This document shows positions 26,359 to 48,820 of a stretch of 64,000 nt of DNA, piece by piece (within the stretch, counting starts at the first letter, position 1; every line of letters starts with the position of its first letter). Source of the DNA: an uncultured Collinsella sp. (GTDB lineage Bacteria; Actinomycetota; Coriobacteriia; Coriobacteriales; Coriobacteriaceae); NCBI GenBank assembly GCA_902489775.1, contig CABUBH010000005.1:6415-70414 (forward strand), in the 5' to 3' direction. Made by a program: the position numbers and the translations under genes. A model generated the notes under the pieces. That model had not been told where the DNA came from. It did not search any database and saw only the letters and a list, made by a program, of their open reading frames with translations.

Positions 26359-26397
26359 GGTCCCTCCTGGTGTGTATTAATGCCGTTAAACGGAGGA

Positions 26398-26413
26398 TGT
26401 TTCACGTGAAACA
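26398..26413. promoter_or_regulatory. parS site (perfect consensus)
   Basis: TGTTTCACGTGAAACA, part of the 18-bp palindrome ATGTTTCACGTGAAACAT. Confidence 0.9.
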
Positions 26414-26436
26414 TTCCGATTTGTTATCAACTACGA

Positions 26437-26452
26437 TGTTTCACGTGAAACA
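26437..26452. promoter_or_regulatory. parS site (perfect consensus)
   Basis: TGTTTCACGTGAAACA, 39 bp from the previous copy. Confidence 0.9.
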
Positions 26453-26475
26453 TTTTGAGTCGACACTATCCATTA

Positions 26476-26491
26476 TGTTTCACGTGAAACA
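26476..26491. promoter_or_regulatory. parS site (perfect consensus)
   Basis: TGTTTCACGTGAAACA, 39 bp from the previous copy. It abuts the rsmG stop codon. Confidence 0.9.
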
Positions 26492-26492
26492 T

Positions 26493-27230
26493 CTAAGCAA
26501 GCGGATTCTTCTTCGCCATGCCATTAGCACGCGGAAGAGTAACGGATGCTGGACGAGACTTCTTAAGAATGATGAACTCACGATGCCCTAAGCCATCAGG
26601 CAAATCTAATTCATCGGTGAAAAGCGCTGTAAAGCCGCAGATCTTAGAAGCAGCCTCGCCAGAATCAAGCTCTTCATCTGTGGGATTGCCCTTAGTAATG
26701 ACAAAGAGTCCACCGTCTTTCAAATAAGGAGAAGCATATTCAACAAGAACCGGGAACGGAGCAAGTGCACGAGCAGTAACAACAGCAAATTGCTTCTTAT
26801 GAGAACGTGCATATTCTTCTAGACGATCATGAACAGCATGGGCGTGCTTCAGGCCAAGGCTCTTAACAAAAGAGTTAACAGCATCAACTTTCTTACCAAC
26901 TGAATCGATATAGGTTGCCTTACGGCCACTGGCAATAGTCAGAGGAATACCAGGGAAACCAGCACCAGTACCCATATCAAGCAGCGCACCCTCAGGGGCC
27001 TTATTGATATAAGGAAGTAATACAAGTGAGTCCAGAATGTGAAGAACTGCAGCATCGTCAACATTCAGAATGCGCGTAAGATTAGTAGCCTTATTGGTCT
27101 CCAATACAAGATCCAGGTGCTGAATACAGGCCCGAAGCTCGTCATCGGAAACCTTCAATGAATAGTCTTTGCAATACGAAGCAAGACGGCTAAGCATCTG
27201 GTTTGCTTGCTCATCAGTCAACACAAACAA
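26493..27230 (-). CDS. rsmG: 16S rRNA (guanine527-N7)-methyltransferase
   Basis: SAM-binding LLDMGTGAGFPGIPL. I place the start at TTG 27230 (RBS AAAGGAG plus 5 nt), because the track start 27299 lies inside the upstream terminator hairpin. Confidence 0.9.
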   Translation of the reverse strand: MFVLTDEQANQMLSRLASYCKDYSLKVSDDELRACIQHLDLVLETNKATNLTRILNVDDAAVLHILDSLVLLPYINKAPEGALLDMGTGAGFPGIPLTIASGRKATYIDSVGKKVDAVNSFVKSLGLKHAHAVHDRLEEYARSHKKQFAVVTARALAPFPVLVEYASPYLKDGGLFVITKGNPTDEELDSGEAASKICGFTALFTDELDLPDGLGHREFIILKKSRPASVTLPRANGMAKKNPLA

Positions 27231-46428: not shown

Positions 46429-47118
46429 CTACTTTTTACGGTGCAAAAAGCGCGCGATGTCTTCTTCGGTGGGGCTTTTGATGTCAAAGCGCAGCGAGAG
46501 CCAGCGCAGTCCCATGGTCACGACAACGCATACGACCAGCGCGGCGACATTGCTCATGATGCCGCTCATAACGAGACACACATAGCTTGTCGATCCGGCG
46601 ATGGCGGCGATGGCATAAAAGTTAGTACGTTGGAAAATGCCCGGAACCACGCCCATAAAGCCGTCGCGCAGCATGCCGCCGCCTACTGCGGTAAAAAAGC
46701 CCATCATGATGCACACCGCCGGCGCAAAGCCGTAGACCAGCGCCTTGTCTGCTCCAGTGGCGGCGTAGATGCCGACCGAGATGATGTCGAGCAAGGGGAT
46801 GAGTTTTTCGGGCTTGTCGACGATTGCCGGGAAAATATAGATGATGGCCGCCGTGGCAATGGAAAGCGGGAGTGCCATCGGCTGGTTGAGGATGTAGACG
46901 TTGCCCACCTGCAGCGTCATGTCGCGCAAGAGACCGCCGCCCAGACCGCAGACCACCGCGAGCGCGACCGCGCCCACCAGGTCGAGCTTGTGCTCACGCG
47001 CAACCAGCACACCCGAGATCGATGCAGCGACAACAGCGAACATCTCGAGCCAAAACGGAATAGCGACCATGGCATCCGAGGCATGTGGGGTAACGGTCAT
47101 AGCGGCGACGACGGGCAA
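46429..47118 (-). CDS. trimeric intracellular cation channel / UPF0126 (YadS/YicG) family membrane protein
   Basis: Two UPF0126 repeats: FAVVAASISGVLVAREHKLDLVGAVALAVVCGLGGGLLRD and VGIYAATGADKAL...FFTAVGGGMLRD. TTG start after AAAGGA. Confidence 0.8.
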   Translation of the reverse strand: MPVVAAMTVTPHASDAMVAIPFWLEMFAVVAASISGVLVAREHKLDLVGAVALAVVCGLGGGLLRDMTLQVGNVYILNQPMALPLSIATAAIIYIFPAIVDKPEKLIPLLDIISVGIYAATGADKALVYGFAPAVCIMMGFFTAVGGGMLRDGFMGVVPGIFQRTNFYAIAAIAGSTSYVCLVMSGIMSNVAALVVCVVVTMGLRWLSLRFDIKSPTEEDIARFLHRKK

Positions 47119-47249: not shown

Positions 47250-47330
47250 CCAAAACATGTACGTCAGCCTCCAAAAACGACATTTTCCGACATCTTTGGA
47301 GGCTGACGTACATGTTTGGATTGAGCTCAC
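47250..47330 (+). repeat. left inverted repeat (contains a 23-bp perfect hairpin)
   Basis: AAACATGTACGTCAGCCTCCAAA (47253-47275) pairs with TTTGGAGGCTGACGTACATGTTT (47295-47317). The tail GTTTGGATTGAGCTCAC faces the ORF. Confidence 0.85.
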
Positions 47331-47422
47331 AGCATGAGTGAGTTGATTTACTCACATCCGGTATATTTCCCCACTTCAACGGACATAAGAGTTGGATACC
47401 GGCTCAGAGCGAGAGGCCCTCA

Positions 47423-48430
47423 ATGGATACCCCTGTTCTCATTTCGCATAAAACCGCATGGCTTGTCCATCATGCACCCCAGAATTTGGTTCAGTCTCTT
47501 GCGCGGCACGACTACCAGATAGGCGCACAAGGCATCTCCACCCAGCAACGTGTTGCGCGCATACGACAGGCCCTTACCGACTGCGGCATTCCGTCCGATA
47601 TGCTTAAGACTATCGATATCGCGGTTGTATTCGAATTCGAGCGAATTCGTACCAAAGGCGTCGTTTGCCACATTCTTGGACAAAATCTTCCCTACGAGCA
47701 TATTAACGAGTTGACGCCCGGAATCTTCATCACCGACGAAGCCTTCGCCTTCGTGCTCGCTGCCGAGTGGATGGATAGGATCGAATATCTCGAATATGGC
47801 TATGAAGTTTGCGCCGATTATCGCATGAGGCTCAATCCCGCCGACCCTTATACCGAGCAACCAGCCACCACCTCCAAGGATGAAATAACCGAACTGCTCG
47901 ATCGGCACCCCGGCAAACCCGGTGCCACACGTGCACGGCTCGCGCTCAGGCACATCTACGATCACTCGGCCTCGCCTATGGAGACCGCTTCGGCAATCGC
48001 CCTCTCGCTCCCAACAAGCGAAGGCGGCGTTGGCATCCGAGGTATCGAACTCAACAAACCGCTCGAGATCCCTCAACGTCTCTGGCATTGCGCCAAAGCT
48101 CGAACACTCAAAATCGATGCGCTCGTGACCTATAAGCGCAGGGAGCTCGGTATCGAATATAAGGGCGGTTTTCACGATGAGCTCGAGCGCAAGGGAGCAG
48201 ATGCGGAGCGAGAGGCCGTTCTCTCCCAAATGGGATATCGAATCGTTACGCTCACTTCGGCTCAGTTCGGCAGCCAGCTCGCCTTTCACCGCGCCATGAA
48301 CAACATTCGCGAAGCACTCGGCATGCCTCGATGTACCGATACCGAGTACCAACGAAAGCAAAATGAACTGCGCAAGGCACTTATCCGCAACTGGAAAAGC
48401 ATACGAGACGAGGAGGCACCTTCCGAATAG
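47423..48430 (+). CDS. DUF559 / Vsr-fold (PD-(D/E)XK-like) endonuclease-domain protein with an AbiEi-like N-terminus
   Basis: The C-terminus LKIDALVTYKRRELGIEYKGGFHDELERKGADAEREAVLSQMGYRIVTLTSAQF resembles the actinobacterial DUF559 pattern (D..aveyDG..H......D..R...L...Gw.v.r). The N-terminus is ISHKTAWLVHH. Confidence 0.55.
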   Translation: MDTPVLISHKTAWLVHHAPQNLVQSLARHDYQIGAQGISTQQRVARIRQALTDCGIPSDMLKTIDIAVVFEFERIRTKGVVCHILGQNLPYEHINELTPGIFITDEAFAFVLAAEWMDRIEYLEYGYEVCADYRMRLNPADPYTEQPATTSKDEITELLDRHPGKPGATRARLALRHIYDHSASPMETASAIALSLPTSEGGVGIRGIELNKPLEIPQRLWHCAKARTLKIDALVTYKRRELGIEYKGGFHDELERKGADAEREAVLSQMGYRIVTLTSAQFGSQLAFHRAMNNIREALGMPRCTDTEYQRKQNELRKALIRNWKSIRDEEAPSE

Positions 48431-48440
48431 CGCCACTCCC

Positions 48441-48520
48441 GTGAGCTCAATCCAAACGTGTACGTCAGCCTCCAAAGATGTCGAAAAATGTCGTTTTTGG
48501 AGGCTGACGTACACGTTTGG
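48441..48520 (-). repeat. right inverted repeat (inverted copy of 47250-47330)
   Basis: The reverse complement aligns to the left copy with one indel and three substitutions. The same hairpin is retained. Confidence 0.85.
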
Positions 48521-48551
48521 GGAAGCGCGGGATCGAGATGTATTTCGATAA

Positions 48552-48578
48552 CAAAAAAGCTCCCATTCTAGGGAGCTT
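48552..48578 (-). terminator. terminator after tRNA-Ser(CGA)
   Basis: AAGCTCCC / GGGAGCTT stem, with TTTTTTGT on the minus strand. Confidence 0.7.
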
Positions 48579-48590
48579 TCTCAATCTAAA

Positions 48591-48681
48591 TGGCGGAGGA
48601 GGAGGGATTCGAACCCTCGTGACCTTATACAGGCCAAACGGTTTTCGAGACCGCCGCATTCAACCACTCTGCCACCCCTCC
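48591..48681 (-). tRNA. tRNA-Ser (anticodon CGA)
   Basis: Acceptor GGAGGGG/CTCCTCC, anticodon loop CTCGAAA, long variable arm, T-loop TTCGAAT, encoded CCA. Confidence 0.85.
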
Positions 48682-48729
48682 GCGTGGGGTAAAAACAAAG
48701 CAGGCTCGAAGGCCTGCTTTGGAATTAAC

Positions 48730-48820
48730 TGGCGGAGAGTCAGGGATTTGAACCCTGGAGACGCTTTTGACGCCTACACGATTTCCAATCGTGCTCCTTC
48801 GGCCACTCGGACAACTCTCC
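48730..48820 (-). tRNA. tRNA-Ser (anticodon GGA)
   Basis: Acceptor GGAGAGT/ACTCTCC, anticodon loop TTGGAAA, long variable arm, T-loop TTCAAAT, encoded CCA. Confidence 0.85.

What the first reader, a model, noticed from the sequence alone, without database searches (positions are those of the whole stretch)
47250..48520. 1.27-kb cassette: DUF559/Vsr-like endonuclease gene bracketed by ~80-bp inverted hairpin repeats, next to two tRNA-Ser genes
47250-47330 and the reverse complement of 48441-48520 align over ~81 nt with one indel and three substitutions. Each copy contains a 23-bp perfect hairpin (AAACATGTACGTCAGCCTCCAAA / TTTGGAGGCTGACGTACATGTTT). Each also has an asymmetric tail, GTTTGGATTGAGCTCAC, which faces inward on both sides, so these are true terminal inverted repeats rather than two independent terminators. 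The left copy terminates no gene. The only ORF inside (335 aa) ends with a Vsr/DUF559-type nuclease pattern (..LGIEYKGGFHDE..DAEREAVLSQMGYRIVTLT) and starts like AbiEi-type antitoxin domains. The cassette sits between a channel gene and tRNA-Ser(CGA), and appears less GC-rich than its neighbours. It could be a non-autonomous or selfish (homing-like) element, or a hairpin-bounded mobile defence or addiction gene. No transposase or integrase is present, so the mobility mechanism would be unconventional.
Basis: partly seen in the sequence, partly recalled or inferred. Interest (0 to 1): 0.68.

Follow-up and report, generated by a model that had tools for sequence, protein, structure and literature searches.

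The report
Nuclease gene bracketed by palindromic repeats
In the gut bacterium Collinsella, a dispensable nuclease-like gene sits between two copies of a ~70-bp hairpin-forming repeat that also occurs at other places in the genome, and exchange between the two copies most likely explains why related strains carry the gene flipped, unflipped or replaced by a single repeat; it is not a transposon.

Summary
Arms 47250-47330 and 48441-48521 are 81 nt and 95% complementary, and each holds a perfect 23-25-bp hairpin with a 19-nt loop. They bracket a real 335-aa gene.

The "terminal inverted repeat / mobile cassette" reading is only partly right. The window is Collinsella aerofaciens-group DNA.
- All 80 closest genomes have this arrangement at this locus.
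- Lineages with 50-85% identical ORFs have the gene in the opposite orientation. In the four inspected, the two hairpins are direct repeats.
- Many strains have no ORF and exactly one hairpin between the same flanks.
- Two remoter relatives have neither.

The same hairpin sits at two or more other loci. At one, two copies bracket a 4.3-kb ABC-transporter segment that other strains replace with a solo hairpin. A second palindrome family has 28 matches in 0.9 Mb of a C. aerofaciens record.

Best reading: these are REP/REPIN-like extragenic palindromes. Recombination between two copies deletes or inverts what lies between them.

The ORF has a conserved D..ExK (DUF559/MTES_1575-like) domain, dN/dS about 0.1, and frequent loss or frameshift. 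I found no AbiEi domain, no target-site duplication and no second insertion site.

A dedicated hairpin-directed cassette recombination system is not excluded (about 15%).

The parts
47250..47330 (.). Left copy of the extragenic palindrome (channel-gene side). Stem 47253-47275 / 47295-47317, loop 47276-47294, inward 13-nt tail 47318-47330.
   Evidence: the same element is present in all 80 closest genomes
48441..48521 (.). Right copy of the palindrome (tRNA side), inverted relative to the left copy. Stem 48452-48476 / 48496-48520, loop 48477-48495, inward tail 48441-48451.
47423..48430 (+). Accessory gene of 335 aa. It has a family-specific N-terminal region (about residues 1-200) and a C-terminal DUF559/MTES_1575-like PD-(D/E)xK nuclease domain with D232, E245 and K247.
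47331..47422 (+). Leader between the left palindrome and the ATG. It holds a block conserved across lineages (GGTATATTTCCCCA ... CGGACATAAG) and a GAGAGG ribosome-binding-like site, and is the probable internal promoter (inferred).
   Evidence: Compared by eye between window, L002 and L088/L092. The consensus scan found no sigma-70 match here.
46429..47118 (-). Conserved left flank: Gly_transporter / trimeric intracellular cation channel family gene.
48551..48590 (-). The tRNA-Ser operon's own intrinsic terminator (GAAAGCTCCC..GGGAGCTTT + T-run on the - strand). It lies between tRNA-Ser(CGA) and the right palindrome, so the palindrome is not needed to terminate the tRNAs.
   Evidence: Sequence; the homologous terminator is present at empty sites L095 and L097.
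48591..48820 (-). Conserved right flank: tRNA-Ser(CGA) 48591-48681 and tRNA-Ser(GGA) 48730-48820.

Best explanation
The two 81-nt arms are two copies of a Collinsella-specific extragenic palindrome of about 70 bp (23-25-bp stem, 19-nt loop). It is a low-copy member of a REP/REPIN-like class of dispersed hairpin repeats in these genomes. They are not the ends of a transposon.

The palindromes bracket an old, vertically inherited but dispensable gene for a two-domain protein whose C-terminal domain is a DUF559/MTES_1575-type PD-(D/E)xK nuclease.

Each palindrome contains both arms. Two copies therefore offer homology in direct and in inverted register.
- Exchange in direct register deletes the gene and leaves one palindrome (the solo allele).
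- Exchange in inverted register flips the gene.

The window carries the flipped allele, which is fixed in the C. aerofaciens-type haplotype. The co-directional allele with direct repeats is probably the older state.

Shown here: the three alleles, their exact junctions, the same palindrome at other loci with and without other cargo, stem covariation, and purifying selection with frequent loss of the ORF.

Inferred: that the exchanges are ordinary homologous or replication-template-switch events rather than the work of a dedicated recombinase; that the palindromes also serve as U-tract-poor bidirectional terminators or insulators; and that the protein is an active DNA nuclease with a defence or genome-conflict role.
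For: 1. Fixed site. All 80 best GTDB loci (ORF 97-100% identical) show channel(-) / palindrome / ORF(+) / palindrome / tRNA-Ser(-).
2. Opposite orientation. The ORF is co-directional with the channel gene in the 85%, 83%, 76%, 53% and 50% lineages. The flanking hairpins are direct repeats with lineage-specific stems but similar geometry in L002, L005 and L088. L092/L093 is an exception, with a flipped loop in the channel-side copy.
3. Solo alleles. About 16 metagenome contigs have tRNA-Ser terminator / one palindrome / channel gene and no ORF. Their outer flanks match those of the window's two copies, for example L164 and L194. In the hairpin-selected set the counts are 12 inverted, 11 solo and 5 co-directional.
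4. Empty sites. L095 and L097, in remoter relatives, have neither palindrome nor ORF.
5. Other loci. The same stem occurs at a PHP|larC locus as a solo copy in 23 contigs. In 5-6 contigs two direct copies bracket a 4.3-kb segment with two ABC-exporter genes and ygbA. It also occurs next to tRNA-Pro / CDP-alcohol transferase beside variable cargo.
6. A second family. The palindrome AAGTTGCGGTG... of the same design gives 28 BLAST matches in one 0.9-Mb C. aerofaciens record.
7. Stem evolution. 18 of 25 stem positions show compensatory double changes. Watson-Crick pairing is 0.897 against 0.850 (maximum 0.867) when arms are shuffled among copies. Loop orientation is polymorphic even at solo sites.
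8. The ORF. dN/dS is 0.10-0.14 between the closer lineages and 0.15-0.30 against the two most distant ones. 8 of 24 full-coverage ORFs carry frameshifts or premature stops, and the five aligned have different frameshifts.
9. Allele history. At least 10 allele changes are needed on the flank-gene tree.
Against: - Simple exchange between stems cannot by itself turn a direct pair into the window's pair, which is fully inverted in loop and 13-nt tail. It needs an additional loop flip or conversion. Loop flips are seen, but the tail extension is unexplained.
- 23-25 bp of homology is near the lower limit for RecA-dependent exchange (my own knowledge of E. coli, not tested here).
- Two independent loci show the same 'two copies with cargo against one copy' polymorphism. 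That is also the signature of site-specific integration and excision.
- The two copies at the locus, and copies at different loci, share lineage-specific stems. This concerted evolution needs gene conversion or turnover that I have not demonstrated.
- Copy number of this family is low: 3 BLAST places in 0.9 Mb.
- No RAYT-type gene was looked for.
- Terminator function is not supported by the consensus scan.
Confidence: 0.58

Rival explanations
1. The palindromes are recombination sites for a trans-acting recombinase, used as folded hairpins or cruciforms. This would work like integron attC sites or Acinetobacter pdif sites. Under this reading the ORF, the ABC-exporter segment and other cargos are cassettes that excise as circles carrying one palindrome and reinsert at solo palindromes in either orientation.
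For: - Two loci show exactly 'flank-H-flank' against 'flank-H-cargo-H-flank'.
- The cassette is found in both orientations at locus 1.
- Stem and loop lengths are broadly conserved despite complete sequence turnover between lineages.
- A recurrent C.C/G.G mismatch at stem position 9 in many copies recalls strand-marking extrahelical bases.
- L094 has an array-like H-ORF-H-channel-H layout.
- Cassette alleles are shuffled relative to the flanks.
Against: - No cargo was seen at more than one locus.
- There is no recombinase in or next to the cassette. The only integrase found (L157/L160) sits in a classical tRNA-Pro island with a duplicated tRNA 3' half.
- The ends do not fit the attC core: GTTTGGA matches GTTRRRY at 5 of 7 positions.
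- The window's stems are perfect.
- At locus 3 of a sequenced strain the cargo has a palindrome on one side only.
- The inverted and co-directional ORF haplotypes differ at dS about 0.8-1.0, which points to one ancient inversion rather than ongoing flipping.
Confidence: 0.17
2. The ORF is a selfish, homing-type nuclease that recognises the solo palindrome or its cruciform and copies itself into it by break repair.
For: - There is presence/absence polymorphism at one fixed site, with recurrent decay of the gene.
- The family profile weakly matches the Vsr-like homing endonuclease I-Bth0305I (3r3p, E 0.034) and a DUF559 structure (3hrl, E 0.005).
- GC is lower than in the coding flanks.
Against: - The presumed target is intact on both sides of the gene, so it is not disrupted as in homing.
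- The same palindrome brackets unrelated cargo and persists in ORF-less strains.
- Long-term dN/dS of about 0.1 at one vertically inherited locus points to a host-beneficial or at least maintained function.
- A 31%-identical paralogue in C. aerofaciens is not flanked by this palindrome.
Confidence: 0.07
3. The hairpins act only at the RNA level, as U-tract-poor terminators, stabilisers or RNase III sites insulating the ORF transcript. Their similarity reflects a local duplication, and the allelic variation comes from ordinary homologous replacement through the flanking genes.
For: - The co-directional arrangement puts one hairpin after the tRNA operon and one after the ORF.
- Copies of the second palindrome family lie between convergent gene ends.
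- Compensatory changes keep the stem paired.
Against: - In the window, and at the PHP|larC locus, a copy lies between divergent genes where nothing needs terminating.
- The tRNA operon has its own canonical terminator.
- The scan called no terminator and there is no Rfam family.
- Identical stems at unlinked loci are not explained by a local duplication.
Confidence: 0.1

Closest known systems
REP / BIME sequences and REPINs (REP doublets forming hairpins) of Proteobacteria (PMC3116915, PMC3337134)
   Same: Short extragenic palindromes. Each unit is two inverted arms of about 25 nt around a spacer and forms one long hairpin. Families are genome-specific, dispersed and intergenic, evolve in concert and keep the stem by compensatory change. 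They sit at the borders of variable segments.
   Different: This family is very low-copy (at least 3 loci; 3 BLAST places in 0.9 Mb), although a sister family reaches 28 matches. The host is an actinobacterium (Coriobacteriia). No RAYT transposase has been looked for or found. The stems are longer and perfect.
Acinetobacter pdif (dif) modules (PMC6449649, PMC13141974)
   Same: Discrete gene modules without their own recombinase, bounded by short palindromic sites. The sites are often in inverted orientation and are found with different cargos.
   Different: pdif sites are 28-bp XerC/XerD sites (11-6-11) on plasmids, and the modules are seen in many contexts. Here the arms are 23-25 bp with a 19-nt spacer, the loci are chromosomal, and each cargo is seen at one site only.
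Integron gene cassettes and attC sites
   Same: Single genes separated by hairpin-forming imperfect palindromes of 57-141 bp. The layouts are solo-site and array-like, and the cassette holds no recombinase.
   Different: No IntI gene was seen. The ends do not match the R''/R' core (GTTRRRY). The window's stems lack extrahelical bases. The ORF appears to carry its own promoter region. To my knowledge integrons have not been described in this phylum.
DUF559 / Vsr-like PD-(D/E)xK nucleases (PDB 3hrl; homing endonuclease I-Bth0305I, PDB 3r3p, PMC3239194; superfamily survey PMC3424549)
   Same: The C-terminal beta-beta-beta-alpha core has D...E-x-K and a following D-x-x-R-x-x-x-L...G motif. There are sub-threshold Pfam hits and weak profile hits to both structures.
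   Different: The protein is a full-length family of about 325 aa (3360 cluster representatives) with its own 200-aa N-terminal region of unrecognised fold. Scores are below the Pfam gathering thresholds. No activity is known.
Neisseria minimal mobile elements and Correia/dRS3 repeat-bounded islands (from my own knowledge, not checked in the paper library)
   Same: Alternative gene cassettes sit between the same conserved flanking genes. They are associated with small palindromic repeats and exchanged by homologous recombination.
   Different: The organism and the repeat sequences differ. Here the repeat itself is the exact junction of the deletion and inversion.

Membership tests
DNA transposon / MITE-type element with terminal inverted repeats | Terminal inverted repeats at both ends in all members | tested here: not met
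   The repeats are inverted in the window and in its 80 closest relatives. They are direct repeats in the L002, L005 and L088 lineages and in L101/L151/L159.
DNA transposon / MITE-type element with terminal inverted repeats | Target-site duplication flanking the element | tested here: not met
   The outer flanks ...CAAGGGT|CC and TTTGG|GGAAGCG share no direct repeat. Solo alleles keep one whole palindrome, not an unoccupied target.
DNA transposon / MITE-type element with terminal inverted repeats | Copies at several genomic sites | tested here: not met
   Every ORF locus examined lies between the channel gene and tRNA-Ser: the 80 kept of 542 tblastn-confirmed stretches in GTDB species genomes, 14 loci from encoding contigs and about 30 metagenome contigs. 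Only 80 of the 542 were inspected.
REP / REPIN extragenic palindromes | Intergenic unit made of two inverted arms around a spacer that folds into one hairpin | tested here: met
   23-25-bp arms and a 19-nt spacer; all copies are intergenic.
REP / REPIN extragenic palindromes | Many dispersed copies per genome | tested here: inconclusive
   This family: at least 3 loci and 3 BLAST places in a 0.9-Mb record. The sister family has 28 matches in the same record. No complete genome could be scanned.
REP / REPIN extragenic palindromes | A cognate RAYT (Y1 transposase) gene in the genome | not tested
Integron cassette / attC | R'' (RYYYAAC) and R' (GTTRRRY) core sites at the base of the stem | tested here: not met
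   The bases are TCCAAAC ... GTTTGGA, which match at 5 of 7 positions each.
Integron cassette / attC | Extrahelical bases marking the recombined strand | tested here: inconclusive
   The window's stems are perfect. Many other copies carry a C.C or G.G mismatch at stem position 9.
Integron cassette / attC | Integron integrase (IntI) with attI next to the array | tested here: not met
   Between typA and dnaB there are only housekeeping genes. The only tyrosine recombinase seen (L160) scores far below the IntI cut-off (52 against 265 bits) and belongs to a tRNA-Pro island.
DUF559 / MTES_1575 (Vsr-like PD-(D/E)xK nuclease domain) | Pfam score at or above the gathering threshold | tested here: not met
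   MTES_1575 scores 24.1 bits against 38.2; DUF559 scores 13.8 against 20.6. At E <= 0.01, 24 of 44 family members hit MTES_1575 and 17 of 44 hit DUF559.
DUF559 / MTES_1575 (Vsr-like PD-(D/E)xK nuclease domain) | Catalytic D ... E-x-K residues conserved | tested here: met
   D232, E245, Y246, H251 and D260 are invariant in 44 sequences at 22-40% identity. In that deeper family alignment the consensus is ExD, as in canonical DUF559. K247 (ExK) is invariant only within the 9 Collinsella-lineage sequences.
DUF559 / MTES_1575 (Vsr-like PD-(D/E)xK nuclease domain) | Restriction-endonuclease-like fold | tested here: inconclusive
   The AlphaFold2 model has pLDDT 93.6. Foldseek against the PDB gives no hit with E <= 0.001, but the top of the list is almost entirely PD-(D/E)xK nucleases such as the R2 endonuclease domain, AF1548, cap-snatching endonucleases, Bax1, Cas4 and TnsA. 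The profile hits 3hrl at E 0.005.
AbiEi-type antitoxin N-terminal domain | Match to AbiEi_4 or a related winged-helix model | tested here: not met
   No hit at E <= 1 for the ORF. None among 44 family members at E <= 0.01. No PADLOC hit.
Free-standing homing endonuclease gene | The gene interrupts, and so destroys, its own recognition site | tested here: not met
   A complete palindrome is kept on both sides of the ORF, and the solo allele equals one of them.
Canonical intrinsic terminator | Short-loop GC-rich stem followed by a T-run | tested here: not met
   Not called by the scan, which allows loops of 3-8 nt only. The loop is 19 nt and the tail is GTTTGG/GTTTTGG.

The most novel reading that the evidence does not exclude
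The 23-25-bp-stem, 19-nt-loop palindromes are the recombination sites of an undescribed cassette-exchange system in Coriobacteriia. A host enzyme would cut and rejoin them, perhaps in folded form. Accessory modules such as this nuclease gene, an ABC-exporter pair and lantibiotic-protection genes could then be excised, inverted and inserted at solo palindromes. This would be a chromosomal, dispersed analogue of integron attC or pdif modules in a Gram-positive gut commensal.
Probability: 0.15. Interest if true: 0.8.

Novelty: new member of a known kind. Interest (0 to 1): 0.42.

Why it matters
Collinsella aerofaciens is one of the most abundant actinobacteria of the human gut, and its strain-level gene content is poorly understood. 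This locus shows that a small family of hairpin repeats marks exact breakpoints where accessory genes are present, flipped or absent. That gives a concrete, testable handle on how its pangenome is reshuffled.

The work also delimits a large, uncharacterised family of about 325-aa DUF559-like nuclease proteins (3360 cluster representatives) for which there is now a confident structure model.

If the palindromes proved to be true recombination sites, this would be a new cassette system outside the Proteobacteria. If not, it is an ordinary case of repeat-mediated deletion and inversion.

Tried and rejected
- **Transposon or MITE with terminal inverted repeats.** Rejected: direct repeats in sister lineages, no target-site duplication and a single site.
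- **Active phase-variable inversion.** Rejected for now. All 80 close genomes have one orientation, and the two orientations correspond to ORF haplotypes separated by dS of about 0.8-1.0.
- **Integrase-driven island at tRNA-Ser.** Some strains carry an inverted ~27-nt copy of the tRNA-Ser 3' end next to the palindrome, but there is no integrase at this locus. The integrase found near a palindrome at the tRNA-Pro locus has its own duplicated tRNA half and is unrelated to the hairpin.
- **AbiEi or toxin-antitoxin reading.** No model hit.
- **Known RNA family.** Rfam gave only sub-threshold microRNA-precursor-like hits, as any long hairpin does.
- **Phage or plasmid origin.** No phage hit. The only 'plasmid' hits are a mislabelled chromosomal Collinsella record and an Arthrobacter replicon.
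- **Word-index protein search with the alignment.** It added no distant relatives. The exhaustive HMM search was needed.
- **First structure model.** The model from the 21 close homologues was poor (pLDDT 56.9) and was replaced by the 44-sequence model.
- **G.T against A.C mismatch counts as an RNA-against-DNA test.** Abandoned, because the palindromes could not be given a consistent strand.
- **Locus 3.** It turned out not to be a clean two-palindrome cassette.
Full report
**1. The observation**

The sequence is as described.
- The repeat finder reports inverted arms 47250-47330 and 48441-48521, 81 nt, 95% complementary and ungapped. Each arm holds its own perfect hairpin: a 23-bp stem on the left and a 25-bp stem on the right, both with 19-nt loops.
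- The stem 15-mer occurs four times in the window, against 0.14 expected, and in none of 100 shuffles.
- These are the two longest local hairpins in the 64 kb.
- The loops and the 13-nt inward tails are in inverted orientation.
- Between the arms lies a 335-aa ORF (47423-48430, +). To the left is a Gly_transporter/TRIC channel gene (-). To the right are tRNA-Ser(CGA) and tRNA-Ser(GGA) (-), then rpsF-ssb-rpsR-rplI.
- GC is 52-58% across the cassette and 59-64% in the coding flanks. The tRNA/intergenic stretch to the right is also low, at 49-52%.

**2. The gene**

The + strand ORF is real.
- It has 68 close homologues in the word-indexed search, all Collinsella-type.
- An exhaustive HMM search finds 3360 cluster representatives at E <= 1e-3 and 2263 at E <= 1e-10. 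Most are full-length proteins of about 325 aa.
- Pfam gives only sub-threshold hits, at residues 225-285: MTES_1575 at 24.1 bits against a 38.2 cut-off, and DUF559 at 13.8 against 20.6. At E <= 0.01, 24 of 44 diverse members hit MTES_1575 and 17 of 44 hit DUF559.
- The family profile weakly matches the DUF559 structure 3hrl (E 0.005) and the Vsr-like homing endonuclease I-Bth0305I, 3r3p (E 0.034).
- D232, E245, Y246, H251 and D260 are invariant at 22-40% identity. K247 is invariant within the Collinsella lineages; the deeper family consensus is ExD, as in DUF559.
- With the 44-sequence alignment AlphaFold2 gives pLDDT 93.6 and pTM 0.90. Foldseek finds no PDB match at E <= 0.001, but the top of the list is nearly all PD-(D/E)xK nucleases.
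- The N-terminal 200 residues match nothing. The suggested AbiEi domain is not supported, and PADLOC and NCBIfam are silent.
- Between lineages dN/dS is 0.10-0.14, rising to 0.15-0.30 against the two most distant ones.

**3. The same locus in relatives**

The window is Collinsella aerofaciens-group DNA. 542 tblastn-confirmed stretches in GTDB species genomes encode a relative.
- All 80 best loci (97-100% protein identity) have exactly the window's arrangement and both palindromes.
- Lineages whose ORF is 85%, 83%, 76%, 53% and 50% identical hold it at the same place but in the opposite orientation, co-directional with the channel gene.
- In L002, L005 and L088 the two flanking hairpins are direct repeats of each other. 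Their stems are lineage-specific, but the geometry is kept at 18-25-bp stems and about 19-nt loops. L092/L093 is an exception, with the loop of the channel-side copy flipped.
- The inverted-repeat state is therefore derived and particular to the aerofaciens haplotype.

**4. Empty and solo sites**

- Two remoter relatives have tRNA-Ser, its own terminator and then the channel gene, with spacers of 56 and 281 nt. They have neither ORF nor palindrome.
- About 16 of these show the tRNA-Ser terminator, one palindrome and the channel gene with no ORF. The outer flanks match those of the window's right and left copies respectively, for example L164 and L194.
- Among hairpin-selected contigs that cover both flanks there are 12 inverted, 11 solo and 5 co-directional alleles.
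- On a neighbour-joining tree of the flanking genes (100 loci) at least 10 allele changes are needed. Co-directional or solo alleles have inverted-allele neighbours at 96-97% flank identity.
- The co-directional and inverted ORF haplotypes themselves differ by about 16% of nucleotides, with dS 0.8-1.0. The alleles are therefore old and have been moved among backgrounds.

**5. The palindrome is not private to this gene**

In the same scan 101 of 120 loci hold a complete hairpin, and their flanks fall into three genomic places.
- *Locus 2.* This lies between a PHP-domain gene and larC. It is solo in 23 contigs and in a sequenced C. aerofaciens strain. In 5-6 contigs two direct copies bracket a 4.3-kb segment with two fused ABC-exporter genes and ygbA.
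- *Locus 3.* This lies between the tRNA-Pro terminator and a CDP-alcohol phosphatidyltransferase gene. It is solo in some contigs and adjoins variable cargo in others. In the sequenced strain a 5.4-kb module with a two-component system and lantibiotic-protection ABC genes has the palindrome on one side only.
- *A second family.* A palindrome of the same design (AAGTTGCGGTG...) gives 28 BLAST matches in that 0.9-Mb record, against 3 for the family studied here.
- One lineage (L094) has palindrome-ORF-palindrome-channel gene-palindrome.

**6. How the palindromes evolve**

- Across 117 distinct copies, 18 of 25 stem positions show compensatory double changes, for example G-C in 64 copies against A-T in 37 at position 13.
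- Watson-Crick pairing is 0.897, against 0.850 (maximum 0.867) when 3' arms are dealt among copies.
- Copies within a genome lineage, including copies at different loci, share the same stem variants.
- Loop orientation differs even among solo sites.
- Rfam has no matching family, and the consensus terminator scan does not call them.

**7. Gene loss**

In the hairpin-selected set 8 of 24 fully covered ORFs are disrupted. The five aligned carry different frameshifts (+2 at two sites, -1 at others), and several converge on a 291-292-aa product. Together with the solo alleles this shows a gene that is maintained over the long term but often lost in individual strains.

**8. Interpretation**

The best-supported reading is as follows.
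- The arms are two copies of a REP/REPIN-like extragenic palindrome.
- Because each copy contains both arms, two copies can pair in direct register, which deletes the gene and leaves a solo copy. They can also pair in inverted register, which flips the gene.
- The window carries the flipped allele.
- This accounts for the exact junctions, the single chromosomal site, the lack of a target-site duplication and the same polymorphism with unrelated cargo at locus 2.

What it does not fully explain:
- the extension of the inverted repeat into the 13-nt tails;
- the inverted loop in the window;
- the genome-wide concerted evolution of the stems;
- whether 23-25 bp of homology suffices.

These gaps leave room for a dedicated hairpin-directed recombination system (about 0.15-0.17). 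A homing-nuclease reading (about 0.07) is disfavoured because the palindrome stays intact on both sides and persists without the ORF. A purely RNA-level terminator reading (about 0.1) is disfavoured because some copies lie between divergent genes and the tRNA operon has its own terminator.

For the protein I commit, at low confidence, to an active DNA endonuclease with a defence or genome-conflict role. The grounds are an intact catalytic motif, purifying selection, low GC, deep allelic divergence and frequent loss.

**9. Comparison with known systems**

- In architecture and behaviour the repeats are closest to REPINs (PMC3116915, PMC3337134).
- As repeat-bounded modules without their own recombinase they resemble pdif modules (PMC6449649) and, more loosely, integron cassettes.
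- Membership of the transposon/MITE class, the attC class and the AbiEi family was tested and not met.
- Membership of REP/REPIN is met for architecture, inconclusive for copy number and untested for a RAYT gene.
- The protein works like a DUF559/Vsr-type nuclease domain but scores below the Pfam thresholds.

**10. Verdict**

This is a new member of a known kind: extragenic palindromes mediating deletion and inversion of an accessory gene. The open question of whether the palindromes are true recombination sites is modest but real. Interest 0.42.

Noticed in passing
window 26395-26493: Three copies of the 18-bp perfect palindrome ATGTTTCACGTGAAACAT at 39-nt spacing. This looks like a triple operator or binding-site array.
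   Followed up: no
window 48522-48550; L088 2640-2800; L092 2790-2830; solo loci L142, L158, L181, L188, L189, L192, L199: Between the tRNA-Ser terminator and the palindrome many strains carry an inverted copy of about 27 nt of the tRNA-Ser(CGA) 3' end (GGAGGAGGGATTCGAACCCG). It is often followed by a block of about 150 nt with its own small hairpins, which read on the other strand resembles a tRNA-like gene with a large insert. The window keeps only a degenerate remnant. ARAGORN calls nothing there.
   Followed up: partly
L222 18897, 25624, 27209; L136 120, 1705; L125 145, 6897; L210 8417: A second family of long extragenic palindromes (AAGTTGCGGTGRAATAG..., 20-25-bp stems, 17-29-nt loops). 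It gives 28 BLAST matches in the 0.9-Mb C. aerofaciens record and none in the window.
   Followed up: partly
PLSDB record NZ_OY725717.1 (L221-L223): The record is labelled 'plasmid 6' (899,693 bp) of C. aerofaciens TSDC17.2-1.1. It carries the his operon, eno, recA, ftsK, rny, pnp and purH, so it is evidently a chromosome segment and not a plasmid.
   Followed up: no
L221 3761-4951 (NZ_OY725717.1 289881-291071, WP_320678086.1): A 396-aa paralogue of the ORF (31% identity over residues 82-324) lies elsewhere in C. aerofaciens, next to an ArsR / heavy-metal ATPase operon. It is not flanked by the palindrome studied here. A different 42-nt inverted repeat lies downstream of it.
   Followed up: partly
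L094 175-243, 1440-1508, 2539-2607: In the lineage with a 53%-identical ORF, three copies of that lineage's own palindrome separate the ORF, the channel gene and the next gene. The layout is array-like.
   Followed up: no
L110 (1057-bp contig, coverage 1.4): One palindrome joins the larC-side flank of locus 2 to the CDP-alcohol-transferase-side flank of locus 3. This is either a rearrangement between palindromes at different loci or an assembly chimera at the repeat.
   Followed up: no
L160 1712-3540; L157: A 495-aa tyrosine recombinase with a duplicated 3' half of tRNA-Pro, which is a classical tRNA-targeted island. It happens to lie about 70 nt upstream of a palindrome copy.
   Followed up: yes
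stem position 9 of the palindrome (window 47267/47303 and 48468/48504): This position is G-C in the window. Across 117 distinct copies it is C.C in 46, G.G in 8 and C-G in 7, making it by far the most frequent mismatch within the core 23-bp stem.
   Followed up: partly
L043 (CAVALS010000066.1): A contig binned as 'Bacteroidaceae bacterium' carries this Collinsella locus at 98% identity, which is probably bin contamination.
   Followed up: no
L042 (JBKXIH010000001.1): In this 2.4-Mb contig rpsF lies about 1.6 kb further from tRNA-Ser(GGA) than in the other loci (7533 against about 5882 in locus coordinates). This suggests an insertion between the tRNA genes and rpsF.
   Followed up: no
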